A stretch of DNA of 63,929 nucleotides, filler included, from Octopus bimaculoides (taxonomy: Eukaryota): NCBI RefSeq assembly GCF_001194135.2. It is 7 parts of 6 records of this genome, joined end to end, with 100 filler letters (N's around TTAATTAATTAA, not from the genome) between each part and the next. Parts side by side here need not be neighbours in the genome. Positions count along the whole stretch, not along the records: positions 1 to 11,548 come from NC_068992.1; positions 11,649 to 31,513 come from NC_069004.1; positions 31,614 to 43,667 come from NC_068984.1; positions 43,768 to 48,389 come from NC_068991.1; positions 48,490 to 55,822 come from NC_068982.1; positions 55,923 to 62,576 come from NC_068985.1; 1 more part is not named here. One strand, given 5' to 3'. This document shows, one piece after another, positions 1,617-62,576 of the stretch (its first letter is position 1; each line of letters starts with the position of its first letter). The position numbers were made by a program, and so were the translations under genes. The notes beneath the pieces were generated by a model. That model worked only from the letters and a program-made list of their open reading frames with translations. It was not told where the DNA came from and searched no databases.

Positions 1617-1660
1617 TGTATATAATATAGACCTCTAAAGGTGAATTCATATATAGTGTG

Positions 1661-1714
1661 CCTTGCTGATGAGAAAAAGATTTTGAACTAATCCAGAAGT
1701 TGATCAATTCAAGG
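1661..1714 (+). ncRNA. Hammerhead-like motif (variant or degenerate)
   Basis: CCTTG-CTGATGA(1666-1672)...GATT/AATC...CA-GAAG-TTGATCAA-TT-CAAGG; 5-bp stem I, palindromic stem III, A15.1 replaced by G. Confidence 0.55.
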
Positions 1715-1877
1715 CTAACTAATTTATGAATTTCTGCGAACCTACTCCCTCGATTTTAACACGTTGTATATTCTGTAACAGTGATACTTTTTAAGTGGTT
1801 TGGCGATTTGGCGTCTATTTTCAGCATAGCCATAGTCTCTTCTATGCCCTTAATTATAATTGTATTTTATACTATTA

Positions 1878-1972
<95 letters not shown>

Positions 1973-3679
1973 CTATGTATGTATATGTTTTGCCTGACTT
2001 CTCATTTTCTCCACGACAAAACCACAATGATCATAAAAAGGAAACAAAATACCGGACCATGCACATTGAAAAAAATGCACAGGCACACCAACAACACACA
2101 CTAAAATATTTAAATACAAACAATACATTTTCTGCGCAAAGTACAGCTAAATACTACAACAAACAACAACAATGAAGCCCCTGTTGTTCCATGTAAAATG
2201 AAAAATCACCTCCAAACACGCAGACACATAATACAAAACACCAGAGTATCACAGCATTCTAAAATAACTATGTCTAACGCTCGGGCTTCTCTTTAGCCCA
2301 CCCCAACTCCAAAACATTTTCAGAAATAGTTGCAGAATATATAGTCTGAAGCACTAATGCTTTGACTGGATTCACACAGTTCGCCTCCATTGTGAACAAT
2401 AATAGAATTTACAAAGTGACCTCAATGTAATGACCAGTTTTGCTAGATGTAACATCAGTTTGTCTTTTTCCCTCAATAGCGTCTCTAAAGATACGTATCT
2501 AAGAAAGCAGTATTTATTGTAACGTTATATATATTTGGTAGCAGTGGCTGGTACACTCAGTCAAGGTACAAATTTTGTATGCAGGAAGTGGTGAGAGAAC
2601 ATGTCAATATTGTCATAAAATATCCCATACGATATATATATTGAAGTGTGCAATACGGTGCTCGGTTAAGCGTGGGTATTATGTATCTCAAAAAGCAAAT
2701 CTTTTGATTGCATTTACCTGCCTAGCCAATTGTATTTTCATTCAGAGCAGACTTAGGGATACTGAACAACAATCTCAGCTCAACAGTTTAATTATCATTT
2801 TGAGCACAGCTTTGTGTATGGGAATTGTCTATTTAGTTTCATAAAAACATTTAAGGCGTGATAGATTGGCATAACGCATAACATTTTTTTAATTTCTTAT
2901 TGTCTATCTTTTTACCTTTAAATTTTCATAAAGAAATTGAGTATTGTATGGCATATATCGAAAAGTATAAATAAAAGATCCATATCAAGTGCCAAACTTA
3001 GTATAACATTTATCCTTCTCAGTGACATGTACTAAATATGTAGAAGAGAATGGATGACAGACTGAATTAAGATTACAAGTTTGCGTGGATCACTGCCTAA
3101 GTATTAAATGTCAATGCGTAGTTATCTTTTTGTATCACATAATTTCAGGTCAGCTGTAGTAACAGTTTCATTGTATTCGCAAAGATCATGTCAAATATAT
3201 TCTTGGAAAGGAGAGAAAACAAATTTCCAAACAAATTATCAAACAATTAATGAAAGTAGCGAAAACAAAATATCACAATAAGGTTACAAGCAAAAAATAA
3301 CTTAACAATGGCAGCTAGTTTAGTAAGTAAATGGCTACAGATATCATGGTACATTCTTTATTGTCATAGATTAAAATGAGCGTAGTGACATAGTAAAAGT
3401 GAAAAATGTACGAAATTGTTTTTTAGTATTGTATGACGTTATACTCGATTCCGTTGAGTTGAAATCTACTTTTGTCATAACAGGTTCCTTCATATCAGGT
3501 TCCATAAAATTTTTCCACAAATTAATTTGATTCAACTGAATCGATCAAACAAATTTTGGCCTTATGTCAAGTGCAAAGATATTAATACTTATTGACGCGT
3601 TGAATATTGCACATTTGAGGTAAGATTAAGTGTGTATACTTTCCGTTCTCTTGTCGATATTGCTAAGACCATAATACTG

Positions 3680-3905
3680 GTATCAGGGGAACAGCCTGCT
3701 CATAAATTAATGTGCAAGTAGCTGAGCATTTCACAGACACACATACCTTTAACAATTCTCTGGGAGAATCAGCCTGACACAGAATATAACAAGGCTGGCC
3801 CTTTGAAATACTGATGCTACTCATTTTTGACAGTTGGTCCTTTGAAATACAGGCACTACTCACTTTTGCGACCTTAGTGGACTGGAGCAACGTGAAATAC
3901 GCCAT
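3680..3905 (-). mobile_element. tRNA-derived SINE, body fragment
   Basis: Reverse complement of the SINE body at 3925-4225 and 26823-27187; internal ~39-bp tandem duplication. Confidence 0.7.
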
Positions 3906-3924
3906 GCGCCTTCACACAATCTGA

Positions 3925-4225
3925 AGACGCATGGCTTCGTGGTTAGGGTATTCGGCTTACGATCGTGAGGTCGTGGATTTGATTCCCGGTGGTGCATTGT
4001 ATCCTTTATTTCACGTTAGTCCCGTTCACTCAGCTGACGAAAATGATTTGTACCTGTATTTCAAAGAGTCAGCTTTCTGTAACACGCTGAATTTGCTTGA
4101 GAACTATATTAAAGGGGCACGTGTCTGTGGAGTGCTCAGCCACATGCACGTTAATTTCACAATCAAACAGTTCCATTGTTCGGATCAACTGAATCTTTCA
4201 TCGTCGTAACTGACAGAGTGCCAGT
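3925..4225 (+). mobile_element. tRNA-derived SINE
   Basis: A-box-like TGGCTTCGTGG and B-box-like GGATTTGATTCC; body shared with 26823-27187. Confidence 0.8.
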
Positions 4226-4519
4226 TTTTTTAAGAGCATAATAGGTGCCAAACAAATGGCAACATCCTAACCGGCCACAGTGAACGACTACAATGTGTAT
4301 GTGTGTGTGTATATATATATATATGCAAGATTTTAAATGTAGTTACAAAAATATGTCCTTCTGTTGAAATGAAATTTCAGTAAATTTCTATATCTTTGTG
4401 CAGCTGAGGATTGCTCTGAATTTTACATTTGATGTAATGTTCACATTCCTTAAATAAATGGAGTCGCATGAAATGATCGTACTGCATTAACTTTGGATAT
4501 CCTTGTTGCTTATTTTGAT

Positions 4520-4579
<60 letters not shown>

Positions 4580-4608
4580 TATACACGCAGACATATAAAC
4601 AAACATGT

Positions 4609-4649
<41 letters not shown>

Positions 4650-4721
4650 CAGACAATTTTCATGTATAATGTATATATATCTAGAAAGTGTCTTCTGCAG
4701 TGGGGCATTTACAGCAACATT

Positions 4722-4789
4722 CTGATGAGTTACAGATGGTAGATGAGATATGTCTGTCCGGAAACGATGAAACGATGAAACGATATGTC
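4722..4789 (+). ncRNA. Degenerate hammerhead-like motif
   Basis: CTGATGA 4722-4728, ACAGA/TCTGT stem II, GAAAC (GAAACGAT x3), GTC at 4787-4789; stem I not paired. Confidence 0.45.
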
Positions 4790-4989
4790 TGGGAAATATT
4801 GTGGAGAGACAGGTGTGATTATTTGATCAGGTAACAGACTAATTTTGCCGATGTATATCTGATTTCTGTTTTGACGTCAGCACGAAAACTGAGAAGAAAA
4901 TCTGAAAGGTATTCCAACTAGTTATTGCTGTAGTATACGTTAAGAGCGAATTTCAGCTGTCAGTGAAATCATTCGCCCAAGCAATTGGC

Positions 4990-6200
4990 CACGGGATGCT
5001 AGGCTGTAGCAGCGGTGTGGTACCCAAGGAGACGAGTGAGCCCAATGAACAGGTAAGACTCGAGCTCACATCCTCTGTCCATCGTGAATTGTTGCAGGTT
5101 ACCAAAATGTGATATCCAGAGTTGTACATAAATTTTGGCGATACATTCCGCTGAAAAGCTTAAGACCATCTGGAGAATCGGTTGGTGCAGGTTAGCATAT
5201 GAGTACAATTCTGAATAGGAGGTAAGTGGTTCCACAATGTCGATTTGGATATGTTGGAAATGTAGATCCGGTGTTGTGAAAGTGCCAAATAATAACTTAA
5301 CACTGTAGTGTATTTTAGCTTTTACATGCAGCGCAGCTCCTGATCCATTCTAGGATGTGCTTAATGATACCGGATCATACAGAAAGGGTCGATATCAGCT
5401 TCTGCGTAGAGCTGATAAATAGATGTGATGAACAGTGCTAAGCGGGGGAAAAAAACATCGATGCTTCTATGGTACATATGGGCGGTCATGACCGGTGGAG
5501 GTGTCACAACAAATATAACCTGCAGGAGAAGATAGGAAAACCAGAATTTCAAGGATGAATAATGCAGGAACGTTACAATCTCTTCGTTATTTTCCTGATC
5601 AGCTGCAATCTGTTAAAGGTCGATGACTGAAAAGTTGTGTAATGCATTCAGTTGTATGTGGAAGCGTGTCAACCACTGAGTTGGTTGAACCCTTGATGTG
5701 ACATATGTCCTTAGTATACTGAGATATAAGGGTGAATGGAGAAGTATTCCAAACGTGTTGAACGCATATACGAGTGATCTGTGATCTGTATAGACAGTGA
5801 AAACAGAAACTTTTAACACACGACGAAACTGTTTGACAACCTGAGATGCTGTCATTAATTCCCGTCCAAAATGCTGTATTTAGATTCGATAGGCTACAGT
5901 AGTTTTGAGGAGGACAAAGTGGATTTGTACGGATGAGTAGTTGCTTCAGGAATACTTCTTTAAATATTTCGTTCTGAAGTGTATTGTCTCCCCGAAGAGT
6001 TGTTTCATCCGTCGCAATATTTGTAATTGTTTTCGTTTTTCTTACCACCGATTTCTTCGACTTTTTGGATACGGTGAAGCCGTTTTGCTGTGAAACTGAG
6101 GTGCGTTTGATAAGTTCCGTCTGTAAAGTTCCGTCTGGTGAAAGCGACCTGATGTTATGTGTCATTCGAATCGCAACACTGACCATCCGGTTTTCAAGGA
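4990..6200 (-). mobile_element. Gypsy LTR retrotransposon pol remnant (RNase H and integrase)
   Basis: FTVYTDHRSL, ISQYTKDICHIKGSTNSVVDTL, FQHIQIDIVEPL, WISHFG...TMDRG; frameshifted. Confidence 0.85.
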
Positions 6201-6523
6201 ACTGCGCATCAATATTTAGGAAGGAAACTTAATTAGATCTTTCTTTCTTACCGTATCTATTTATAATTTTCCCTTCAACTGCGAGAGAAACACTACAATT
6301 CGACTAACACTAATATCCATTTCCTTCTCTATTTTAACTTAATATAAAATATTCATCTTATACACTTGTATTTAGAAAGGCCACGTCTTGAAACATCACT
6401 CTTCATCAACTGAACCTATTTCGTGTGAAAAACACACGTGGATTTGTAACAAGTTACATTTAGAGTGGTACCAAACATCACACATATACACACAGATATA
6501 CACGCATACATACACAGGAAGTC

Positions 6524-6556
<33 letters not shown>

Positions 6557-6557
6557 C

Positions 6558-6594
<37 letters not shown>

Positions 6595-7399
6595 CATACA
6601 TACATACATACATACATACATACATACATACATACATACATACATACATACATACATAATGAGAAGAGTAATAAATATCTCCTTTTATATACTTGTATGA
6701 GGTCTCCAAATATTCAAAGTCGCCACATTTACTTTTCAAGTATATTCCAAGTAAAGATTTTATCCCAAGGAAGTTTTCAGACGATTTCAGGTCACATTTG
6801 TAGATAATCGCAAGCTTTTTATCTACTGTTAGATGCACTGTTGCATGTGAAATTAATTTATTTGCCCAAAGCTACAACGAAAAAAGAGCAACACATACAA
6901 AATCAAAATCCAACAGCTCCTAGTTCTAAATTTTTAATTCCAATATTTCGCCTAAAAAATATTCACATGCGAAGTGGTATGTACTACTGTACTACACATA
7001 CACATATGTATGTATGTACGATTGTGTATATGTATATATATCTGTGTGTGTGTATGTATGTGTGTGTGTGTGTGTAAAATTCAACGTCACAAATTTTTGT
7101 TTGATTCAAGATATTTCCAGTTGTTTTAGAATATGTAAGTAATTGTGTGCATGTAAGGATCTTATGTTACTGTATTTCTATGTATATAATGTTTGTACGT
7201 GATTTTTGTACGTTTCGTTATTCTTTATGCATATATTAATACATATGCTTTTGCGCATTTGTTTATTCGAGGAAACTAAAATGAGGAATCCATAGAATGT
7301 TTTACAAATTTTCACTTAGTTACAAATGGATTGAATATGAAGGACCCAGTCAGTTTTCCGAGGTTTGGAACTCTATAGCATGGATATATTAGCTGTATA

Positions 7400-9700
7400 T
7401 TCTTCGATAGTAGACTATTCTTTTTCTCGTATTTTGGATACGACATTCACATCTGCCGGGTAGCCGAACACAACAAAACAATTTAGCTGCTGCTTTCGGT
7501 GTGCATGACCATCTAAAAAACCTTTCCTGTGAATTGCGTTGCAAAAGGTTTGTAGAAACAGCGTCGTATCTCATCTTGCAGACAGCTGCTAATGACATAG
7601 GTGATGTCTTCCTTAGTGCTATTGCGAATTGGCATTCTTTTGTCACAATGTGAATATTCGGAGGCATTGCTGTTTATACAACTGATCGGGTATTTAGTTG
7701 CTATCTAGTGGTCCTTTATATCGAACGAACATCCCAGGTGAGGTTTGATATATTTATCACAGGTCCAATAGATGTTCCTCTTTTCCGGCCAATATTACTG
7801 CTATCTTCTAACTTACGGGTTAGGAACCTATGTATAACTTTCTCCTAAGATGATGGGTGATTCCCTTTGAAGTTTCTGTTTAAGTTACGAGCATAGACTT
7901 TTTTTCTTTTTCCTTCCTATTGCCAGTTACCATATTGTTTCGCAGTGATTCTTCATAAATAACAACCTGTAAATTTATTCTTAGAATTTAAACATGCTAT
8001 GAGCCCCTATTTTCAGCTCATCTGTCTCCGAGTTCTTTTGTACAAGCGTTGCCTGTTAAACAGCTTAGTACACCGAGTCCGGCGTTTATTAGGATGGTGA
8101 GTGTTTCCTGTACTAATTATTAATAATCATATCTCTCCTCCAGTTTCACTTGCGATATGATAAGTTTCCAGAGGGAAGTTTGAACAGTACACACGCTCAT
8201 TTAACCAATTGTGCTGCTTATTTCCAAGAGAAATTACAGCTCAAAATTACTCTGACCATTCTCAGAAGGAGCCTTTACATTCTTGATCAATAAGTCGTTC
8301 GTGAGTTCATAGGTGCCTATAATAAACTTGTATTTATACAACTTCATACCTTTCTTTTGCATCTTTTAAGTTTTATTTTCAATGTAGGCTTTCCTATTTT
8401 TCTCCATAGAGCATCGTTAATTATCATCATATTGTGTCCAACTGTAGTCTCGTATTCACATTATGTATTTTTATGGAGACAAATTTTCTTTTTTGACAAT
8501 ACACTTTCTCGAATCTTTTTTTTTCGACATCTTTTGTTTCACTCAACAATGTGAATTCTTATGTCCGATTTTTCCACACCCATAGCATGGTTTGGGTCTT
8601 GACTATTGCTTTTATATTTTCTTGTCACGACACGTATATATATATTTGAATAATCTTTTTCAATTTTTTTCTGCGCCCTGTCGTAAATTTATAATCCTTT
8701 GGCATTCTTCAGCCACTGTCTGTAGATTTAGTTTCGAATCTTGTTCTAGTTTCGTCAGTATCCGAACCCGTATCTCTGCGTCGTTGCTTGCAGTTAATCC
8801 TAGCACAACTATTAGACATTTGAATATGCCCGGGGTTAATTCGTTTAGTTTAAATTGTTCATATTCCCTGTTTACGATTCCGGCATACGTGACGAAATAT
8901 TCAGTTTCTCTCGGGGTTTTTTGGGGGTTTTTTTCAAATTCAAACAATCCCAGCTAATATTAAATAGTAAACTGCTTTCAATGAATATTTTAGATGACAG
9001 GTTAATTGTTTCCTCGAAACAAATTTCGAATGGTTTTCTCGGCAGGATGTAATTTCATGCTCCGCAGGTGATAATTTTCTTTAAAAAAAGTCGTACCTTC
9101 GTCCATCCAGTTTCCACATTCTTCTTTGATGATTCCTTCATACCTTCTGAAGTATGCAGAAAACGTAATCTCTTCTTGTGAAGAGATATGTCTGTTACGT
9201 GTTTGTTACTGTTTGTAGTGGATTATAAGTAAATTCATCAATTGAATTAGCAGCCTTGTCTTCCGAAAACGAAACTGAAGTGATTTGGACTGCAACAATA
9301 ATTCCAACAACTGTTGATTTTGATGTTGTTGTAGTTGCTGCTATATTTGTTGTTGCTGTTCCTGCTGTTCTTGTTGCTGTTGTAGTTTCCGTTGCAATTG
9401 TACCACGGAAGTCAATAGGTCTTCCATGCTAAGAACGTCCACAGTGAGCTTCGAATATCTCGTCGCCACTCTCATATCCTTGAGTTTGGATACAGACTAC
9501 ACTGCAACAGTCTTGTAACACTACAAACAGTAACAAACACGTAACAGACATATCTCTTCACAAATCTGACTGCACACATCACACTGTATGTCGCACTGTC
9601 AGTGCGCATGCGCCTTTATAAGGTCTAGGACAGTTCACTTGCTATTCCACAGGGGTGTCAGGATTTCGCCACAACATATACATACCTATTACATTGTATG
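7400..9700 (-). mobile_element. Internally deleted Gypsy element: 5' LTR, PBS, gag, CCHC knuckle, protease, post-integrase tail
   Basis: Gag YFVTYAGIVNREYEQFKLNEL...LTKLEQD (8660-8947); KPCYGCGKIGHKNSHC; protease RLQLDT; PBS at 9459-9468; LTR-like region upstream with TATAAA and GCGCATGCGC. Confidence 0.8.
9459..9468 (-). promoter_or_regulatory. Primer-binding site TGGCGACGAG
   Basis: Complementary to the CUCGUCGCCA 3' end of tRNA-Ser(GCU); lies between LTR-like sequence and gag. Confidence 0.7.
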
Positions 9701-9747
9701 TCCTTTAATGTTACATATGTGGTTCTGTGTATGTTCATATATATATA

Positions 9748-11097
9748 TATATTATTCAAAGGAATTCCAAATCTGTCTGCTTTTATGTTTTATTTATATT
9801 CTTATAATATTAATGTAGGATATAGAATATATAATATATTCAGTAAAATTAAATGAAGGACTGATTGTCTTTTTGAATAAATGAAATATTGAATACTGAA
9901 TATTAAATATTAAGTATTGAATATTAAGGGACTAGTAAATTTTCTTGCATTTTAGCAGTCTTCAAGGTCCCACGCTGTGACAGGAGTGTTGACAACTATA
10001 GTTGCTTGGCTGTCTTTTCTCCTTTATATATATTCCTGTGGACAGCAGTGGTAGTTGTTAGCTATTTTTAGAGATGATGCCAAACCATTTTTCAATGTTT
10101 ATTTTTAGAGATGATGACAGCAGTACGTTTTAGAGATTTTTTTGCATTTTAGTTATAGGAATAAGATTTTTAAACCCCAAATAAGATTAATTTAACTTTT
10201 GTTTGTTGAGCTTGGGTTTAAATTTCTTAATGAAGTCTTTTTCCCTTTGTTTCCTCTCAATTTCATTCAGGTTGTAAAGTTTATGAAATGGAAATATCAT
10301 AAAAGTTTTTCGACCACATGTTGCCAGATGGTTACTCAGTAGTATTTGGCGGACTTCTGGATTTTTAATCTGTTGTCAATGCACACGCGAGCGTTCTGAT
10401 AGTGCATTACCTGTCTGGCCAACGTACACTTCTCCACAATTTGGGCATTTGATGCAGTAGATCAAATTTCTGCTTTTGTAGTTCCTGTTCGCGTTTGTGG
10501 ATATTTTCCCTGTTTTTGTGTTCATATATGGGCCGGTATGGATTGATACGGCCGGTATGGATTGCATTTGGACACAGTGAATTTTTGTTGCGAAGGTCAA
10601 ACCTTGCCTTTGTTAACAACTTTTTCAAGTGTTTAGGTTGTCTCTTAGTAAGGGTTATAGTTTGATCTGTGATGATATTACTCAATTCCTTAATTTGTGC
10701 GATGATTGGTAAGTTTGCTTTAGCGATATTGAAGATGTTCTGGTGGCATGGATTGTGTGTCACTCTAAATGGTATGATTTGCTCTTGTTTTTCTTTTCTT
10801 TGCGGTGTCCTCAGTTGTTGTATTGGTATTTTCAAAGCCCGCTAGATACCGTTTTCTATAAGTAGTGACGGGTATTTTTGTTTGAGCAGAAATTCTTTCA
10901 GTTCCGTCAGGCGCTGATTTCTGGTCTAAAGAAATATTCAATATTCAATATTCAATATTTCATTTATTCAATACGACAATCAATACTTCATTCCATTTTA
11001 CTGAATATATTATATATTCTATATCCTACATTAATATTATAAGAATATAAATAAAACATAAAAAGCAGACAGATTTGGAATTCCTTTGAATAATATA
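9748..11097 (-). mobile_element. Penelope-like element, 5'-truncated (RT linker and GIY-YIG endonuclease), with inverted terminal repeats
   Basis: NLIYCIKCPNCGEVYVGQTG (GIY-YIG); PFRVTHNP...KRQPKHLKKLLTKARF linker; ~165-bp inverted repeats at 9748-9925 and 10933-11097. Confidence 0.9.
9928..9971 (-). ncRNA. Hammerhead remnant in the PLE 3' pseudo-LTR
   Basis: Sense strand reads GGGAC-C-TTGAAGA-CTGC-TAAAAT-GCAA-GAAA-ATTT-ACTA-GTCCC; C3 replaced by U. Confidence 0.55.
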
Positions 11098-11128
11098 TTC
11101 CTCTATACACTATTATACAAACCCCTGA

Positions 11129-11535
11129 GTGTCTGTGTGGTAAGTAGCTTGCTTACCAACCACATGGTTCTGGGTTCATTCCCACTGCGTGGCACCTTGG
11201 GCAAGTGTCTTCTACTATAGTTTCGGTCCGACTAAAGCCTTGTGAGTGAATTTGGTAGATGGAAAACTGAAAGAAGCCCGTCGTATATATGTATATATAT
11301 GTGTGTGTATATGTTTCTGTGTCTGTGTTTGTCCCCCCAACATCGCTTGACAACCGATGATGGTGTGTTTACGTCCCCGTAACTTAGCGGTTCGGCAAAA
11401 GAGACCGATAGAATAAGTACTAGGCTTCCAAAGAATAAGTCCTGGAGTCGATTTGCTAGACTAAAGGCGGTGCTCCAGCATGGCCACAGTCAAATGACTG
11501 AAACAAGTAAAGGAGTAAAAAGAGAGTAAAGAGAA
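11129..11535 (+). mobile_element. Near full-length tRNA-derived SINE
   Basis: Head TGTGTGGTAAGTAGC...GGGTTCATTCCC; body and purine-rich tail shared with 34612-35016 and 31615-31840. Confidence 0.85.
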
Positions 11536-11548
11536 TATATGTATATAT

Positions 11549-11648
11549 NNNNNNNNNNNNNNNNNNNNNNNNNNNNNNNNNNNNNNNNNNNNTTAATTAA
11601 TTAANNNNNNNNNNNNNNNNNNNNNNNNNNNNNNNNNNNNNNNNNNNN
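11549..11648. other. Artificial 100-nt contig spacer N44-TTAATTAATTAA-N44
   Basis: Identical construct at 31514-31613, 43668-43767, 48390-48489, 55823-55922 and 62577-62676. Confidence 0.95.
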
Positions 11649-11725
<77 letters not shown>

Positions 11726-12437
11726 GTATATAAGTGTATGTATGTATGGAACACATGAAGTACTGTCAATAGAATGAATTTTAAAAAATACATTATCGTA
11801 TGTATGCAAAATACTTCCAAACCAAAAAAACAAAAACAAAAGATAAAATGCAGTGTAAATAAAAAAAAAGGCGGTGAATTAGTCTTCCATTCTGCTTTTG
11901 TCTTTCCGTGATTTTTTCTCTTGTTGTTGTTGTTCTTATTGTTGATGTTGTTGATTTGATTTGTTTTAAGTGGGTTACCAACCATCTGTGAATAGTTTGT
12001 GACGAACATTTTTTTTTCCTTACAAACATGGCAACGCAATGTGCTTGGCTATAGTTTTGATCATACGTGTGTACAAGAATGCGTATGTATATATACATAC
12101 ATACATATATATATATGTGTATGTGTATTTTTATATGTATATATATATATAAATATATACATATATATACACACATACGTATATATATGCATGCATATAT
12201 ATATATACATATATATATATATATTCATATATACATATTTATACATTTTTATAAACATATGTACATTATTATGCATATCTATCTATCTGTCTGTCTGTCT
12301 GTCTATAAGTATGAATGCTTGTATATATACGTGTATGTATATACACATGCTTAAATCTGTGTGACAGGTCTTCACTTCTTTTTGACTGTAACTATATCCA
12401 TATATATGTGTAAAAGCTTTAATGTACGCATATATAC

Positions 12438-12518
<81 letters not shown>

Positions 12519-52344: not shown

Positions 52345-52655
52345 GGGGATCATACACGTGTTGGAATGTCTCCGACCAAACCACTTATGACAAGCACCAA
52401 CCTCTTTGCTAACATCATAGCAAAAATTTTAAACTCTGTCTTTAGGAAGGTTACGAGCTGGAAATTTTCTGTAATAACCCTATTGTTGATGTTCTTTTTC
52501 ACCAGTGTTAACATACCCCGGCTCACAGAATTGAAAACTCTCTTTTGCTGCCAGTTGCAATAGATGTTTGACAAGAGATCACTGAACAAGTATAGCATAT
52601 AACCATGAAATTCATTGGACAAACCATCCAAAGCTGGTGATTTGTCGTTTACAAA
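52345..52655 (-). mobile_element. Tx1/L1-clade LINE RT N-terminal fragment
   Basis: KSPALDGLSNEF...VSRGMLTLVKK...NFQLVTFLKTEFKIFAMMLAKRL. Confidence 0.8.
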
Positions 52656-53023
52656 ACTGCTCTGTACTTTCTGTATCTCAAATAATAATTATATATTTTC
52701 AGATTTGGATGAAATATGAATGCATATCGACCGACTTAAGTTTCTTGAAAAGAAATGTGGAAAACAGAAAAATTATTTAAGTGAATAAATCTCACTAATT
52801 TTGCCGAACTGATTTTAATAGTTAACAACCTTTAATTCAGAATAACTTGTTTCTGAGATGTAAAGGGCCAATAATTGTGACGAAACAAGAAGCGGTTGAG
52901 TAAGTTTTGGTGAGGGTTAAATAAATACTTTTAACTAACTTGCAGGCCAAATCATCTGAGCCTTTCAATTTACTTTGTAAATAGTCTGCATTGTTTAATA
53001 TTAAAATGAAAAGAAAACCAAAC

Positions 53024-53114
<91 letters not shown>

Positions 53115-53298
53115 GTAGAAATGAATTACAAATGATTAGACCTGCTGCAATGAACATACACTAAATATGCATTGGTTTTAAGAAATGGATTTTAGTTTAG
53201 TGTATGCATATTTAATTATCACAACATAAAAAAAAATGCCTTTACTATTTTGCAATTCCTAATATAAATTTACATGTACGGGTCGTTGAGCGTCTTAG

Positions 53299-53410
53299 CC
53301 ATAGACATAGAATAGACATAGACATAGACATAGAATAGACATAGAATAGACATAGACATAGACATAGAATAGACATAGAATAGACATAGACATAGCCATC
53401 GACATAGAAT
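53299..53410. repeat. (ATAGAC)/(ATAGA) mixed tandem repeat
   Basis: Direct inspection. Confidence 0.85.
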
Positions 53411-53834
53411 CATTGTTGACGTGATACAAATCGTTTCCAATGTTTTAGTCATATGGAAACAGAGGTAAGGGGATGAAAGGCAGAAACGGGAATATGCTGG
53501 ATTGGAGAGCTTACAATATTCAATCTTAATTTGGGAGTTAAATTCCTGCTTGAGTCAACACTGCATTTCCTAGCCCTATCTGCCGTCAATCAACTACACA
53601 TCTCAGTGTAGCAGAAATTTAGATTTAATTGAATATACTAATGTGAGAAATGTGAGACATTTCTAACATTTGATCGTGAATTCAGTGGAAGGTGGTTATA
53701 TTTCACCCAGTATTTCAAAGAAAGACGAGATTGGAGGGCTTTGAAATCTGAATCAAAACTAAATATTGTAAGATATTTTTCTCCAAACACTCTTCTGTCA
53801 ATTGATATGAGAAAAATCAATGTTATAAGGAGAG

Positions 53835-54042
53835 ATAAGGCGGCAAAGCTGGCAGAATCTTTAGCATGCCAGGTGAAATGCTTAGCGGCGATTCGTCTAT
53901 CTTCCAAATTCTGCCGAGGTTGACTTTGCCATCCATCATTTCAAGGTTGATAAAATATGTACCAGTTGCATACTAGGGTCGATGTAATCAACTTACCCAC
54001 TGTCTCGAAACTATTGGCCCTGTGCCAAACTTTGAAATCAAT
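53835..54042 (+). mobile_element. SINE (GGCGAGCTGGCAGAA-type family)
   Basis: Homologous to 22868-23090. Confidence 0.75.
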
Positions 54043-55781
54043 ATTACAAAGAAAGATACAACTGACGAGTTTGATAGGTTTTTTTCAAACACCCAATCGT
54101 ATCCCAACACGGGCAGGTCCAAGTTGGTGGCTCAAACCAACTAATTTTATTTATGGGTCATAAATAAATGAAGATCACATTGCAAGATTCGGAGGAATTG
54201 TTTAATTTTTTTACAAATGCATTGGAAACCCTTTCCTAGACCTTCATGAATAACCATTCTCACTTCAGCTGTAAAAAACAAACTAACAAACAAATAACGA
54301 ATAACACATAACAAGGAAATTACTATATTATCTTTTCATGAGAAATAAAAGAATAAAGTTCTGTTTCTGTAGCTTAAGGACCAATAGATCTCAAGATAAG
54401 ACATTATCTCAGAAAAATTGCTCATCACTATTCTCCAGTTATATAAATCAAAGAACTAAACCTTAGGAAGATACGAAGCTCATAAACAACCAGTAATCCA
54501 GGACATAATCTACAGCATGAAAATTACAAAATTAAATAAATTATAACAAAAAAAAAACAAAAAACCTCAACTATTTTCTTCATGGATTTTCACACTAAGA
54601 GAATATTTGTGTTTTAGTATAATTTTTTCTTTGCACTGATAAATTTACCTTTGAATATTCTTGTTATATATTTGTAAAATCTTTCTATTTTGTTGATAAA
54701 ATACTAATTAAAAATGAAGAAATTATAATTGATGAAATATTAAAACTTACAAGAATTTGATAACTTATGGCAGTATTTTATTTTTGTGAATAAAATTTCT
54801 AATTACATTTTACATTTCTGTTTTCCCTTCAAATTTCACTGATTCATCAACGTATCTGAAAAGCGATTATTAATATTTCATAAATCTGTAAAAATTAATC
54901 TAAAATAATTTTTAAAACTGTCAAGGGCTATTTGTTCCAACATATAACCAGGCTATGTTACAATATTCAGTTCTGAAGCAAATTAGTGCAACATTTGGCT
55001 TTTACTGTTATCCATTTATTTCTAATAAAAGGTTTCACTTATTAATGGAAACAAACTGCTGAATACCACAGACTTGCAGGAAGTTTTGTAAACTGTTGCT
55101 CGATCACTTTTGTTTCTCTTCACCTTTCTACAAAACTGACAGTATTGCTATTGACACTTCAAGAGAGAGACAGAATGATAAAAAAAACTTGTACTCGTAG
55201 AAATTGTTCAAAATAACTCAGTAACCTGCTTTTTTCGGATGTTATTTTTCTTGGTATCCAATAATTGGCATCCTGTGACTGCTATTATTTAAACACTGCA
55301 GAATGAACATGTCGATTCGACACAAAATTCACTTATGTAGCATGAAGTGCGCAAAATATCGATAACCAATTACCTCCCCTTAGATTATTCTACTTGTTGA
55401 ATCATTCACTCATAAATTTCACACACAACACGAACCAAAAAATTTAAGATAATACGTATTTAAATAAATTTTCATGTCATGAATAGCAAAAGCGAAACCG
55501 GTCAACAAACACAACACAAGATATATTAAAACTATGTAAAGTGTGTGCATTTTCCTTCTTTAATTTCTTAATAATATTACAATTCACCATGGGGAGATAA
55601 TCAAAATACCTCCTTTTCTGTTACTATATGCACAAACACACACATATACACACGCACACACACACATATATATGCACACAAGTAGAGACACGTATATGCA
55701 TGAATATACATGTTTATATGCATACACACACATATGTATACACATATATACACATATCTATGTAATGTATATATATGTATG

Positions 55782-55822
<41 letters not shown>

Positions 55823-57270
55823 NNNNNNNNNNNNNNNNNNNNNNNNNNNNNNNNNNNNNNNNNNNNTTAATTAATTAANNNNNNNNNNNNNNNNNNNNNN
55901 NNNNNNNNNNNNNNNNNNNNNNGTGTGTGATTATATGCATATGTGTGTGTATACATGTGTATGTATGTATGTATACCTATGTATATATGTATGTATGTAT
56001 GTATCTATGTGTGTGTATTTATATATATATACATGCATGTATATATATGTATGTGTGTACGTGTACATATATATATTTGTATATATATACATATGTATAT
56101 ATATATATACATGTATATACATATAAAAATATATATAACACAATTATATGTTATATGTAATTATAATTATACATATATACATATAATTATACATGCACAC
56201 ATATATACGTATATACATATGCATATACATACACATATTTATATGTATGTGCGTGTATGCATGTATATGCATATATATATATATAGTATGTATAAAAGCA
56301 GTATGTATGTGTATAATGACTAGCGCAAACATTTCCACAATTCTCAACTGATTTTCACCAAACTTTACGCATACATTACTTATGTCCCGAGGATTGTCGT
56401 GCACTGTAACATTTTGCCCAGAGCTCCCACGTAAATGGGCGTAAATGGACATAGTCTTTCGTATGTAGGGTTTTCCATACATTTTCATCTTTTTATAAAA
56501 GTGAAAGGATTTTGTCTATTCATTTATTTCTACTATCCACCTATATAAATCACAGTATGTCAAAGAGTAGTACAACGGTTTTGCTATGGAATGGTGAAAC
56601 TATTTTTTCGTTTTCTTAAGACACTTTTGCATAATAGCAACGATATATGTAACAGAAGTTAACGTTAATCCGTTAACGTTAACCTTAATTGAAAAAAAAG
56701 GCATAACTACAGTTTAATATCCCACCAATTTTGTTGCCTCATAACTTCCAGAAAGAGGGATACATTTTAACGAAACTTTCACCAAATAATCGCTTATATC
56801 CTGTAGGTTGAGTGTATGTAAAAATTTGTTGTGAAATGCTGTCATTTTGAATTTGCTGCAGAAAGTGGTTTATGTTTGTGGAATGTGGCCCGGGTGCCAA
56901 GGGGGTAGCAGCCTTTAAAAGTTTGGGAACCACTGCACTAGAATAATAGGAAAGAGGAGAAAGGGAACTGCTCATGGGTTGAGGAAAGCAATAGAAAAAG
57001 CTTTTTACTGTTCATAGAGCAAGAGAAAGGAGCTAAGATGAAAACCAGAAGAAGGGAAGTGATTTGGCCACTGACGAATGTTAACGTGAGGATGTTACTG
57101 CTCGGGTCGAAACATCCTCTTGAACGTTGGACACCGTCCGACGATATCAACACCTTATCGTCAAAGCTACATTAATCAAAAATGAACGAAACGAGTACTA
57201 TCTTGTTTTAGACACACACACACACACATAGAAACACACATTCACATACACGCACAAACATACACACATA

Positions 57271-57307
<37 letters not shown>

Positions 57308-58854
57308 CAACACAAATCCTTTAACGGTGGAGAAACTCGCAGCCCATAATTTCATTGTTGAAAAGGGATAGGACATATAAAGAGAGGAAATTCAACCAAC
57401 ACTACCAGATGAAACGAGAAAAGTGGTACATTTGTCTGTGAACGTATAATCTGTGTATAGTAATTCTAGTTTCGGAAACCAATGGCTGTAATTCTCTTCT
57501 TTGTTGCTAACATGACATTTAGTATTACATCCAGCTAACATCTATAAAAGTACTTGTATTTTTCTAATAAATTGCCTATATAGTTGATATTTCTGTCATG
57601 AACCCCCCCCCCCCCACCTTAAATGAAGTATAGAGAAATCAATTAAAGCCAACAGACTTTAATGAAAATAAAGACTTCTCATAAGCCCCCTACCCCACCT
57701 CCCGAAAATATCGTGTTAGTATCGTACTATTACCTTTCTCGATGAATATAGAATTTCGGTGATGTAGAATTCCTCTTCCTCCTCCTCCTTGCACCCTTCT
57801 CTTTTACAAGAACTACCAGCCAAATAGTTTCTTATGGAAAGTGAATGTTATAAATTGTTAATGCAAATCCGTACTTAATGGCTTTATTAGTTTATATATC
57901 TTGTAAAAATTATTTATAGATGCTCGCAATATATTTTTTTAACTACACATACAGACATGCAGTCAAACAGACAGACAGACACACACACATACACACGCAC
58001 ACTCAGTACATATACATACACACAACGAATCGCTTCTTTGATTCTTGCCCAAGATTCGAAACTGAATCTACATTTTTCTACACGTTACTTTCGTATTGTT
58101 CTCGACTTTTGCACTTAGAAGTTTATGAAGGTTAACTGCCACAGTTGAGTTCTATTGTTTAAGTTAAAATTATTAGATTAAATACAGTTCGAGAGAGATA
58201 AACGCATCATTTTCCATTGTTCTCTGACCTACATCGAGCTTTTCAACATATATAGATACAGTAATCAAATTCAGTTCATCCTTCTTTCTTTTGGCCGATG
58301 GAGGAATCACTTTATGCGAGGAACTACACAACTCTTACCCTCTCTACTTGTCTAGACTTTCTCTCCTTATCCCATCAGTCCTCTAGCCGTCAACAAAAGA
58401 TGAATTTAACATACTATAGAATGGACATCAATATTGGAAATACTCATTGTTCTACAAACCGAAGAAGTTGTATCTAACACTGTAGCGATGAAAATAAAGG
58501 GCCATATCACCCAACTTATTAATCATTTTCTTCCTCTCATTTTAATTGCTACATACCATCGTTAAAGATGGTTGTATATCATTCTATCAATAAAAGAACA
58601 TACACTATCTTGACCTTATTTTTCTTATTAATTAGATATTACTTAAATAGTTCATCAATTAGTTTTTTTAAAAGTCTTTCGTCACACTACTGGGAACTTT
58701 TCACTGACTTCCTTTCATCGCACTAACTCTGTACTAGTACTGCTACTATAAAGTTTCTTTTCCTGTCTTAAATTTATTCGTGTTGTGCATGTAATTTGAT
58801 TTGGGCGATGGCAGTGTGTTTGTTTTTGTATCATATGGCACTGAGTGTCTATGT

Positions 58855-58924
<70 letters not shown>

Positions 58925-59130
58925 GAATGGATGTATGTGTGTATGTGCACGCGCGTGCTATACATAAATAACTCGCTCGCCAATAAACCAGACAGACATT
59001 AGCAATAATAAATGGCTGATGAGTGTAAAAATAAGACAGAAAACTAACCTCAAAGTACAAATAGCAGAACATAATGTAATGCTGTGTAATATTGCAGTAG
59101 AGTAGAACTGATTAACTAGCGACACACACG

Positions 59131-59365: not shown

Positions 59366-60577
59366 CAGGGTGCATAAGGTATTTGAGGACATAATTTTCC
59401 TGGGTCATTGATGCATTTTTTGCTAACTCTGTATAATCTTTGTTTCAGAAAATAATAATAGCAGCCCCTCAGCTTACTCAAGAAATGAAGAGGCATGCTG
59501 TTATTGTGGTTATAAAGGCTGAGCATTGTGATTGAGAAATATCGCGAGTTTTAAAAGTTGCCAGATCTTTCGTCTACAAGGTTTGTAAGGAGCTAGAGAC
59601 TGAAGATGGAAACCTGTCACTCGTATCAAAGCATAAAAAGAATTCTAAACGTTCTGAAATCATCAGAACACCTGAATTTATCCAGCAAGTTCAACAGACC
59701 ATTGATTACAATCTCAGAAAGTCCATGAGATCAATTGCAAAAGATCTCCATGTGTCAGAAGGAACAGTTAGAAATGTTGTCCACGAAGACATCAGATATA
59801 AGTCTTATATGATGAGGAAAGGCCAATTTGTCAGAAAAAGCAAAAGAAAATCACTACATCAGATCTAAAAGCCTCTTAAACAAACTGAAAATTCCAACAG
59901 AAGGTTTGATTTGGTTTTTCTCAAACGAGAAAAACTTCTACCAAGATCAAAAAGTTAACAGAAGAAATGACAGATGGTTATGTGCAGACCCTTTTGAAGT
60001 TCCAAGTGTTATGGTTTTAGGGGTTGTCAGCAATGAAGGACATGTGATGCCTCCTTACTTCTTTCTACAAGGAGTTAACTCTGCCGCCTATATTGAAATA
60101 ATTGTTAAGCCCTGGATAGACAGTGTATGCAATGGAAGGCCATATGTGTTTCAGTAAAACTCTGCACTATTACTCATGGCTCTAGTAATACAGGAATGGA
60201 TGGCTGAAAATTTTCATCATCACATAATCCCTAACATTTGGTCTCCTAATTCCCCAGATCTCAATCCATTGGGCTATTACCTGTGGAGCGTTGTTGAGAG
60301 AGAGAGAGAGAGAGGGGTCATTGAACACACCCATAACACCAAAAATTCTATGAAAGCTGCCATAGTCAGAGTAATGTCCAAAATGAACCAGGACCACTTG
60401 ATTCGAGCATGTAGATGATTTAGATCTCATATAGAAGCAGTTGCTGAAGCTGAATGTGGCTTTATTGAATAACATTATGGAAAAGGTTTATTTTTATCCT
60501 CATGACATTTTTTGATAAATAAAGTTATCTGTTGTTTTATAAATATACATCTGTCCTCAAATATCTTACGCACCCTG
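59366..60577 (+). mobile_element. Near full-length DD37D (maT-like) Tc1/mariner transposon, inactive
   Basis: 26-bp TIRs at 59366-59391 and 60552-60577 (24/26 identical), TA on both sides; WFFSNEK, FQ*NSA, WSPNSPDLNPLGY. Confidence 0.92.
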
Positions 60578-61691: not shown

Positions 61692-62576
61692 TTGGGTCAT
61701 CCCATAAATAATGCATTTTTAATACTTTTATTTTTCAAAATTAAGATAAAGAAAGTTCTTTTTTATTCCAAAATATACTCTCCTTCATTTTCTACAATGC
61801 TCTTCCATCTATCTGGTAGACTTGCAAGACTCCTCTTCCAAAATTTACTTTTCCGTGACGAAAAGTACTGTTCTGACCTCGTCTACAGAATTCATATTTT
61901 TTCCGTCCAAATGATTTTGAAGATTGCGGAATGAATGATAATCAGATGGGGCAATGTCTGGAGAATATGGTGGATGGGGCATCGCTTCCCATTCAAACTG
62001 CTCCGGTGTTTGGAATGTCATCTCGCTGTATGTGGTCGAGTATTATCCTGATAGAGGAACACCTTTCGTCTTGAAACCAAAGATAGTCGTTTTTCTTCTA
62101 GTGCTGACATGAATGACAGTTTGAATGATCAAATCCAAGCCTCTCTGCTAGTTCCTCAACAGTTACGATGGGATTTTGTCCCATCAGGGTTTGCAGAACG
62201 TCCTCGGCAAGCTCTACAGATCTTCCAGGTCGAGGCTCGTGTTCTAGGCTGTAATTTCTGGCTCGGAATATCTGAAACCACCGTTGAAACTGGCTTACGC
62301 CTATTGTCCAATCCCCATATACTGCATTAATATTCCTCGCACTTTCCGTTGCGTTATTGCCTTCATTGAACTCAGAAAGCAAAATATGCTCCTTTGTCAC
62401 TTCCATTATAGCTTTGAAAAAATAACTGTTAAAATTGAACTGCACTCTTCAGAACTTGCACTAAGAATAAGGCCAAGGTAAAATTACTACCTGCTTTCAT
62501 AGCAAGTTGATGCAGGTAATTTATCTCGTCCCCCTCCGACTTTTAGTCCATGCAATTGAAAAAACTGCATTATTTA
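61692..62576 (-). mobile_element. Internally deleted mariner element
   Basis: HTH region NATESARNI...QRWFQIFR; HPPYSPDIAPSDYH; TIR TTGGGTCATCCCATAAATAATGC with partial partner cut by the spacer. Confidence 0.88.

What the first reader, a model, noticed from the sequence alone, without database searches (positions are those of the whole stretch)
1661..59048. Dispersed hammerhead-like family with palindromic stem III and a recurring extra A before GAAA
Seen: about a dozen motifs on both strands and in several assembly segments (1661, 4722, 9928, 12853, 13399, 13878, 17221, 19408, 41118, 44200, 46816, 59014). Most have a self-complementary stem III (TTGATCAA, ACGT, ACGGCTGT, ACCATTGGT, ATATAT, ATTAAT). 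Six have an unpaired A between stem II and G12, and the two best copies have an opposing A after A9. Established: Penelope-like elements carry minimal hammerheads that can cleave as dimers through palindromic stem III. Inference: this genome holds an abundant PLE- or retrozyme-derived ribozyme population with a non-canonical core junction. I cannot tell whether this variant has been described.
Basis: partly seen in the sequence, partly recalled or inferred. Interest (0 to 1): 0.75.

Follow-up and report, generated by a model that had tools for sequence, protein, structure and literature searches.

The report
Penelope hammerheads with loose junction pair
Four of the twelve listed motifs are decayed copies of four different jumping-gene repeats that each carry a hammerhead RNA motif predicted to cut itself; the 'extra A' is one half of a loose base pair that related repeats fill with other letters and that is already tabulated for Penelope-type elements, and the other eight motifs are likely chance matches.

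Summary
Partly real, mostly known. The 12 motifs share no sequence. Four (1661, 9928, 41118, 46816) are decayed copies of four genome-wide repeat families whose majority sequence is a full type I hammerhead with palindromic stem III and an A before GAAA. 9928 lies 3' of a Penelope-like RT/GIY-YIG ORF; the others are short non-coding units with Penelope-type partial-tandem and inverted ends. Eight motifs lack stem I; five were single- or two-copy, and one lies in a mariner remnant. A young fifth family (4404) was missed. Genome-wide the pattern occurs 3,416 times against 33 in the control, with compensatory changes in all three stems. The A is not fixed: sister subfamilies show A·A, C·A, U-A, A-U, U·U, A·G and C-G at this spot. 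Craig 2021 File S2 lists U·U and C·A junctions as canonical; Cervera 2014 Fig. S3 has one AGAAA among 56. RNA-seq showed no ends at the cut site. The scan noted such elements before, in this genome and others.

The parts
1660..1715 (+). Type I hammerhead motif of family B: stem I GCCTTG/CAAGGC, core 1666-1672, junction A 1695, stem III TTGATCAA. Decayed: GAAG for GAAA, weakened stem II, U for C at 17
1620..1885 (+). Family B element in the window: short inverted piece of the family's 3' part (about 1620-1655), then the hammerhead-bearing part up to a microsatellite; family unit about 490 nt, no ORF found
9928..9971 (-). Hammerhead motif of family D: stem I GGGAC/GTCCC, one extra nucleotide and U at position 3, C (9958) opposite A (9945) at the junction, stem III with two changes against the family palindrome GTATAC
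9747..11098 (-). 5'-truncated Penelope-like element (family D): broken ORF end with GIY-YIG domain at about 10205-10465, 3' untranslated part with the hammerhead, inverted copy of the 3' end at 10933-11098
   Evidence: (L274, 34.3 bits, above cut-off)
41128..41208 (+). Hammerhead motif of family A: A (41139) opposite A (41192) at the foot of a 12-bp stem II, stem III CGGCTG (family CAGCTG); best preserved of the four
41091..41340 (+). Family A element with small inverted fragments of the motif at its 5' end (41091-41126); no ORF found
46816..46859 (-). Hammerhead motif of family C: stem I CTGTG/CACAG, A opposite A at the junction, 3-bp stem II decayed, stem III CCATTGG
46654..47172 (-). Family C insertion: one 356-nt non-coding unit plus a partial upstream unit (47000-47071 repeats 46654-46715) and an inverted 5' part (to 47172)
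4398..4487 (+).
13150..13690 (-). Mariner-type transposase remnant that contains the cited 13399 motif (chance match)

Best explanation
The real motifs are decayed genomic copies of type I hammerheads carried by several Penelope-like retroelement families, one with its own RT/GIY-YIG ORF and the others short non-coding units likely moved by such enzymes, and the 'extra A' is the 3' half of a loose, freely varying pair at the foot of stem II. Shown: the families, their stems and covariation, the junction letters, the ORF link for family D, the insertion layout. Inferred: an intact unit RNA would fold the core with the junction pair mismatched or looped out, would need a second copy to form stem III through the palindrome, and would then cut slowly after position 17, trimming multi-unit transcripts to unit length (possibly circles). 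Penelope RT and endonuclease would insert copies from the fixed 3' end into AT-rich or (TA)n sites, leaving 1.2-1.6 units with an inverted 5' piece. Most insertions come from RNA that was uncut or rejoined at this site. The window's copies carry changes and are likely inactive passengers. The other eight cited motifs are likely chance.
For: Five unrelated families found by BLAST, with no core filter, each give a complete core, stem I and palindromic stem III as majority. Genome counts: CTGATGA-N10-20-CAGAAA 6,307 vs 479 reversed control; fixed 25-nt layout 3,416 vs 33 with A and 2,438 vs 86 with C/G/T, the latter including a canonical family. In 1.05 Mb of evenly spaced genome, 11 strict hammerheads vs mean 1.0 in 8 shuffles. 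On 11 hand-picked subfamily rows, 12 of 14 pairs show two-sided change; stems are 92-98% paired but the junction pair 27%. Junction states: A·A, C·A, U-A, A-U, U·U, A·G in the C/E/F group; C·A, C-G, U·U in D and its relatives. D lies 3' of GIY-YIG (5e-07), with RT motifs in L052/L293. Partial tandems, inverted 5' pieces and 3' ends at (TA)n match the layout in Craig 2021. Self-cofolding gives the dimeric hammerhead for L334 (-32.7 vs -23.2 kcal/mol) and L314. The C unit folds at z = -4.0.
Against: No cleavage shown. Three RNA-seq runs (one study, about 6% of each read) cover families F and Y with no pile-up of ends at the cut site. Only 3 of 29 family C copies begin within 3 nt of the cut site, about what even truncation would give; 20 run across it. 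No autonomous parent was found for A, B, C, E, F, H or Y. Core, G10 and C11 are fixed by the pattern for pattern-found rows, and the 11 rows were chosen by me from 60. Family B fits a one-sided bulge as well as a G·A pair, and only 2 exact copies could be read. Cofolding did not give the dimer for the window's B, D and C copies or for L195.
Confidence: 0.8

Rival explanations
1. The A is a required insertion in the catalytic core, defining a new A-specific hammerhead variant.
For: A is near-fixed within families: 95 of 100 listed family A matches, 53 of 54 in D, all aligned B and C rows. A is the commonest letter in the 25-nt layout. G-C follows it in most families, and in B it may be unopposed.
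Against: Near-fixation within a family follows from common descent. Sister subfamilies that spread to many copies have U or G there, some Watson-Crick paired; relatives of D have C-G or U·U; family Y has U·U. Published tables show U, C and A at this place.
Confidence: 0.12
2. The fold is kept as a landmark for the Penelope protein or for RNA dimerisation, and cutting is negligible in vivo.
For: 20 of 29 family C copies run across the cut site; no RNA ends at the site; weak in vitro cleavage of Penelope minimal hammerheads (PMC4209133); 8 of 9 frog retrozyme dimers did not cleave (10.64898/2026.07.22.740005).
Against: All catalytic positions are kept in five unrelated families while position 7 varies. 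Rejoined circles would also give copies that cross the site. Fragmented RNA-seq of mostly decayed copies is a weak test.
Confidence: 0.25
3. All twelve motifs are chance arrangements in AT-rich DNA.
For: The loose motif is near chance (63 vs 51); A before GAAA in 6 of 12 has P = 0.25; eight motifs lack stem I and family support, and one is a mariner coding remnant.
Against: Full motifs 4 vs 0.4 in shuffles; four cited motifs belong to families whose majority is a better hammerhead than the window copy; about 100-fold genome enrichment.
Confidence: 0.03

Closest known systems
Hammerheads of Hydra-clade Penelope-like elements and of PLE-X1_cBra (Craig et al. 2021, PMC8557442, File S2; read: passages, section 11, supplement parts 2-3 of 59)
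   Same: Type I, short stems, 6-9-nt palindromic stem III, one nucleotide on each side at the foot of stem II: U·U in 14 of 26 Hydra rows, and C·A followed by G-C in PLE-X1_cBra. (TA)n targets, partial tandems, inverted 5' copy.
   Different: Here A dominates, in thousands of copies of mostly non-coding units. Family D has a linker and endonuclease of the Neptune type by motif (read by eye, no tree), not Hydra. The paper files these junctions as canonical and, in the parts read, does not discuss them.
Minimal hammerheads in pLTRs of metazoan Penelope-like elements (Cervera and de la Pena 2014, PMC4209133; read: parts 1-2 of 4, supplement parts 1-2 of 3)
   Same: Nucleotide between 9 and 10.1, palindromic stem III, U3 variants, single or opposite-strand copies, weak dimer cleavage. 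Fig. S3 has one AGAAA among 56 entries; by list order it is the Cotesia row, but the columns were not kept.
   Different: Their consensus has G10.1-C11.1 directly on G12 and almost no stem III. That form also exists here, as one very large family.
Metazoan non-LTR retrozymes (Cervera and de la Pena 2020, PMC7229834, part 2 of 6 and passages; Li, Clavereau and Pollet 2026, 10.64898/2026.07.22.740005, parts 1-3 of 5)
   Same: Non-coding units of about 350 nt with one type I hammerhead and a stable fold (C, E, F); proposed to derive from Penelope pLTRs.
   Different: Head-to-tail copies with two hammerhead positions were seen in 1 of 37 loci (L340); most insertions are 1.2-1.6 units with inverted ends. 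No circles or cleavage shown.

Membership tests
Penelope-associated type I hammerhead | Core C3-A9, G12-A14, A15.1-U16.1, H17 | tested here: met
   Majority state in families A, B, C, Y; D has U3 and one extra nucleotide, a U3 form also listed in PMC4209133 Fig. S3. The window's B copy has G at 15.1.
Penelope-associated type I hammerhead | Type I topology with stems I and II supported by covariation | tested here: met
   stem I 6 of 6 and stem II 2 of 3 pairs with two-sided change on 11 chosen rows; different stems in A-D.
Penelope-associated type I hammerhead | Palindromic stem III | tested here: met
   (97.7% of cells paired).
Penelope-associated type I hammerhead | Position 3' of an RT plus GIY-YIG ORF, in a pLTR | tested here: inconclusive
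   Met for D. No ORF found for A, B, C, E, F, H, Y in the loci held.
Penelope-associated type I hammerhead | Penelope insertion layout: partial tandem, inverted 5'-truncated copy, tail, (TA)n target | tested here: met
   against Craig 2021 Fig. 2 legend.
Penelope-associated type I hammerhead | Self-cleavage, as a dimer | not testable with these tools
   Cofold prediction only; RNA-seq gave no ends at the site.
Minimal hammerhead consensus of Cervera 2014 | G10.1-C11.1 directly next to G12, stem III absent or 1-2 bp | tested here: not met
   A nucleotide lies between C and G12, and stem III palindromes are 6-10 nt; not filed here.
Non-LTR retrozyme | Non-coding unit of 150-450 bp with one type I hammerhead | tested here: met
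   C 355-356 nt, E about 350, F about 350 from read ends; B about 490.
Non-LTR retrozyme | Head-to-tail arrays with two or more complete hammerheads | tested here: inconclusive
   1 of 37 loci shows two head-to-tail hammerhead positions, 75% alike; loci were only 3 kb and no array search was run.
Non-LTR retrozyme | Abundant unit-length circular RNA | not testable with these tools
   Reads are present on both mate orientations; circles cannot be told from tandem copies.
Non-LTR retrozyme | Loop 1-loop 2 tertiary contacts of canonical hammerheads | not tested
   No test made.
Hydra clade of Penelope-like elements | Endonuclease without CCHH, CxCX5C linker, RT clade | tested here: inconclusive
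   Hydra-like endonuclease copies (by motif, read by eye) carry a different hammerhead; no link to A, C, E, F; one junction with B (L030). No tree was built.

The most novel reading that the evidence does not exclude
The pair at the foot of stem II is a tuning site: subfamilies with the same scaffold set their cutting rate by choosing A·A, C·A, U·U, A·G or a Watson-Crick pair, so that enough RNA stays uncut for reverse transcription. This genome would then hold a natural mutational series, in thousands of copies, that standard searches discard and that makes the open question of what Penelope hammerheads do directly testable; family B would be a one-sided bulge not seen in the tables read.
Probability: 0.2. 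Interest if true: 0.6.

Novelty: new member of a known kind. Interest (0 to 1): 0.3.

Why it matters
Modestly. It shows that Penelope-type hammerheads tolerate a mismatch between stem II and G12 across at least eight subfamilies and over 3,000 copies. Perreault 2011 rejected hits with a mispair at 10.1-11.1 (PMC3088659, passages) and Rfam finds none here, so such motifs are likely undercounted. The set of natural junction states in one scaffold is a ready panel for testing whether and how fast these ribozymes cut. The window copies themselves are decayed repeats.

Tried and rejected
Rfam: nothing at gathering score; the E-value scan listed only microsatellite matches to miRNA models and one viral-UTR model among the 150 of 341 shown. 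One sequence family for the 12 motifs: rejected. 'A before GAAA' as evidence by itself: rejected, P = 0.25. A derived only from CpG decay of a G: unlikely, since family C' copies show CA and CG but no TG at the site (by eye) and A is near-fixed in A and D. 5' ends set by cleavage: no excess, 3 of 29. The look-up of sequencing runs: no RNA holder listed among indexed runs; three raw RNA runs laid on families F and Y gave no start or end pile-up at the cut site. Parents for the non-coding families: 30 GIY-YIG loci and 20 of 150 Hydra-like endonuclease hits gave none. Pfam did not recognise the short mariner pieces or the window's thumb-region ORF; PDB did recognise the mariner piece. Lunse et al. 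2017 (dimer cleavage of Penelope hammerheads) is not held and may describe this junction; supplements of the 2026 preprint were not seen. Literature searches found no paper that discusses this junction in its text; this is not proof of absence. No covariance model was built, because the genome search takes none from alignments and family loci were few.
Full report
Setting. The window is a pack of seven stretches from a 2.34-Gb, AT-rich, microsatellite-rich animal genome, likely an octopus (my inference from its repeats; not tested). No Rfam family reaches its gathering score.

Checking the observation. Against 200 local dinucleotide shuffles the loose motif is near chance (63 vs 51.4), motifs with a palindromic stem III are enriched (20 vs 8.7), and full motifs with stem I number 4 vs 0.4. 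A precedes 345 of 940 GAAA in the window, so 6 of 12 is unremarkable (P = 0.25). Genome searches split the list. 41118 (family A), 1661 (B), 46816 (C) and 9928 (D) each belong to a dispersed family. 4722, 17221, 44200 and 59014 found only themselves, 19408 one weak second place, and 13878 only hits that leave out its core. 12853 has neither CUGANGA nor GAAA and no listed hit covers it. 13399 lies in a repeat whose copies encode a mariner transposase piece (E 5e-14 to SETMAR and 3e-13 to Mos1). These searches miss old copies, so 17221, which resembles a decayed minimal hammerhead, stays open. A fifth real motif, at 4398-4487, was missed; it belongs to a young family with 96-98% identity.

What the families are. 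In alignments of 15 loci each for A and B and 14 each for C and D (best hits of 40 scored, self included), the majority sequence is a complete type I hammerhead, better than the window copy, with different stems in each family. The A before GAAA was present in all aligned rows, in 95 of 100 listed exact matches of A (of 152) and in 53 of 54 of D. Family D is the 3' end of a Penelope-like element: the motif lies about 190 nt after a GIY-YIG ORF (PF01541 at 5e-07 in L048; the window's own copy at 34.3 bits), RT motifs lie upstream in L052/L293, and the window copy has an inverted 3' piece at its 5' end. A, B and C show no ORF. B and C repeat a unit of about 490 and 355 nt in partial tandem, end at a fixed point beside (TA)n, and often carry an inverted 5' piece or a tail. 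That is the layout described for Penelope-like insertions (PMC8557442, passages). One C unit folds as a long rod with the hammerhead at its tip (z = -4.0).

Genome-wide. CTGATGA-N10-20-CAGAAA occurs 6,307 times against 479 for the reversed control. The canonical CGAAA junction occurs 16,152 times against 2,002, mostly in one minimal-hammerhead family, judged from the first 100 listed. In 120 evenly spaced 10-kb stretches (1.05 Mb without N) a strict descriptor found 11 hammerheads against a mean of 1.0 in 8 shuffles: 7 canonical, 2 with C, 1 with A and 1 with U before GAAA. Family A was found in 4 of the 120 stretches, B, C and D in none. So near-intact hammerheads number roughly ten per megabase, and the loose junction is a sizeable minority.

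The junction. A fixed 25-nt layout (core, H, G, ten letters, C, X, GAAA) occurs 3,416 times with X = A (control 33) and 2,438 times with X = C, G or T (control 86; this includes a canonical family). Of 60 loci parsed, 36 cluster by their downstream sequence into one group with families C, E and F. In that group the two junction letters are A·A, C·A, U-A, A-U, U·U or A·G, by subfamily. On 11 rows that I chose for a 6-nt stem III and subfamily spread, stems I, II and III are 92, 94 and 98% paired, 12 of 14 pairs change on both sides, and the junction pair is paired in 3 of 11 (core, G and C were fixed by the pattern). Among GIY-YIG loci, D has C·A, its relative L285 C-G and L269 U·U; family Y has U·U. 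The A is therefore the 3' half of a variable pair opposite the known nucleotide after A9. Whether the two stack as a mismatch or loop out, leaving G-C as the working 10.1-11.1 pair, cannot be told from sequence. Family B reads either as a G·A pair or as a one-sided A bulge.

How it likely works. Shown: fold, covariation, layout, ORF link for D. Inferred from Penelope biology (PMC4209133): stem III forms between two copies through the palindrome; self-cofolding gives this dimer for L334 and L314 but not for the window's B, C and D copies; cutting is slow and trims multi-unit transcripts; Penelope enzymes insert the RNA from its 3' end. Against strong cutting: of 29 family C copies chosen by a motif 3' of the hammerhead, 3 begin within 3 nt of the cut site, 6 begin 3' of it and 20 run across it. 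Three RNA-seq runs of one study gave 292-458 reads on family F and 127-181 on family Y with even depth across the site and no pile-up of ends there; these reads come mostly from decayed copies, so the test is weak.

Comparison with what is known. Cervera and de la Pena 2014 (parts 1-2 of 4 and supplement parts 1-2 of 3 read) report the nucleotide between 9 and 10.1, palindromic stem III and weak dimer cleavage; their Fig. S3 has one AGAAA among 56 entries. Craig 2021 File S2 lists, as canonical, U·U at this junction in 14 of 26 Hydra-clade rows and C·A followed by G-C in PLE-X1_cBra. Perreault 2011 (passages) rejected mispairs at 10.1-11.1. The 350-nt units work like non-LTR retrozymes (PMC7229834), which a 2026 preprint derives from Penelope pLTRs (parts 1-3 of 5 read), but arrays and circles are not shown, so I do not file them there. 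Lunse 2017 could not be read. Seven searches found no text discussing the junction. Earlier notes of this scan describe such elements in this genome and the extra A in another; they are leads, not support.

Verdict. Observation partly confirmed (4 of 12, plus one missed). New members of a known kind, with a junction that is tabulated but little discussed. Interest 0.3. The boldest reading left open, a tuning site with a natural series of states, has about one chance in five.

Noticed in passing
   Followed up: partly
G000; L083:3719, L151:5526: One canonical minimal-hammerhead family (stem II GGCTG/CAGCC, stem III CG) makes up most of the first 100 of 16,152 matches, often as inverted pairs 200-450 nt apart.
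   Followed up: no
L266, L268, L270, L271, L277, L281, L283: GIY-YIG families whose hammerhead has U3-A8 and one extra nucleotide before position 3, as family D has an extra nucleotide before U3.
   Followed up: no
L030:669-1217 and 1100-1850: A Hydra-like endonuclease fragment, present in both orientations, is joined directly to a family B partial tandem; single case, possible template switch or nested insertion.
   Followed up: partly
L345, L349, L352, L353, L357, L360: Hydra-like endonuclease copies (10,933 candidates) carry a hammerhead with a long stem II and an internal loop near its foot.
   Followed up: no
L234, L237, L246, L254, L261: Five of 29 family C copies begin 11-15 nt 5' of the cut site, at the foot of stem II; perhaps a reverse-transcriptase stop, but noticed after the fact and not significant.
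   Followed up: no
L150:6044 (-), L137:925 (+), L067:963 (+): Further well-formed hammerheads in the random sample, two with C before GAAA and one with a very long stem II.
   Followed up: no
window 32235-32954, 59536-60157, 62098-62448: ORF remnants that read like Tc1/mariner transposases (by eye).
   Followed up: no
window 19430-19470: Near-perfect local inverted repeat around the 19408 motif; one weak second place in the genome.
   Followed up: partly
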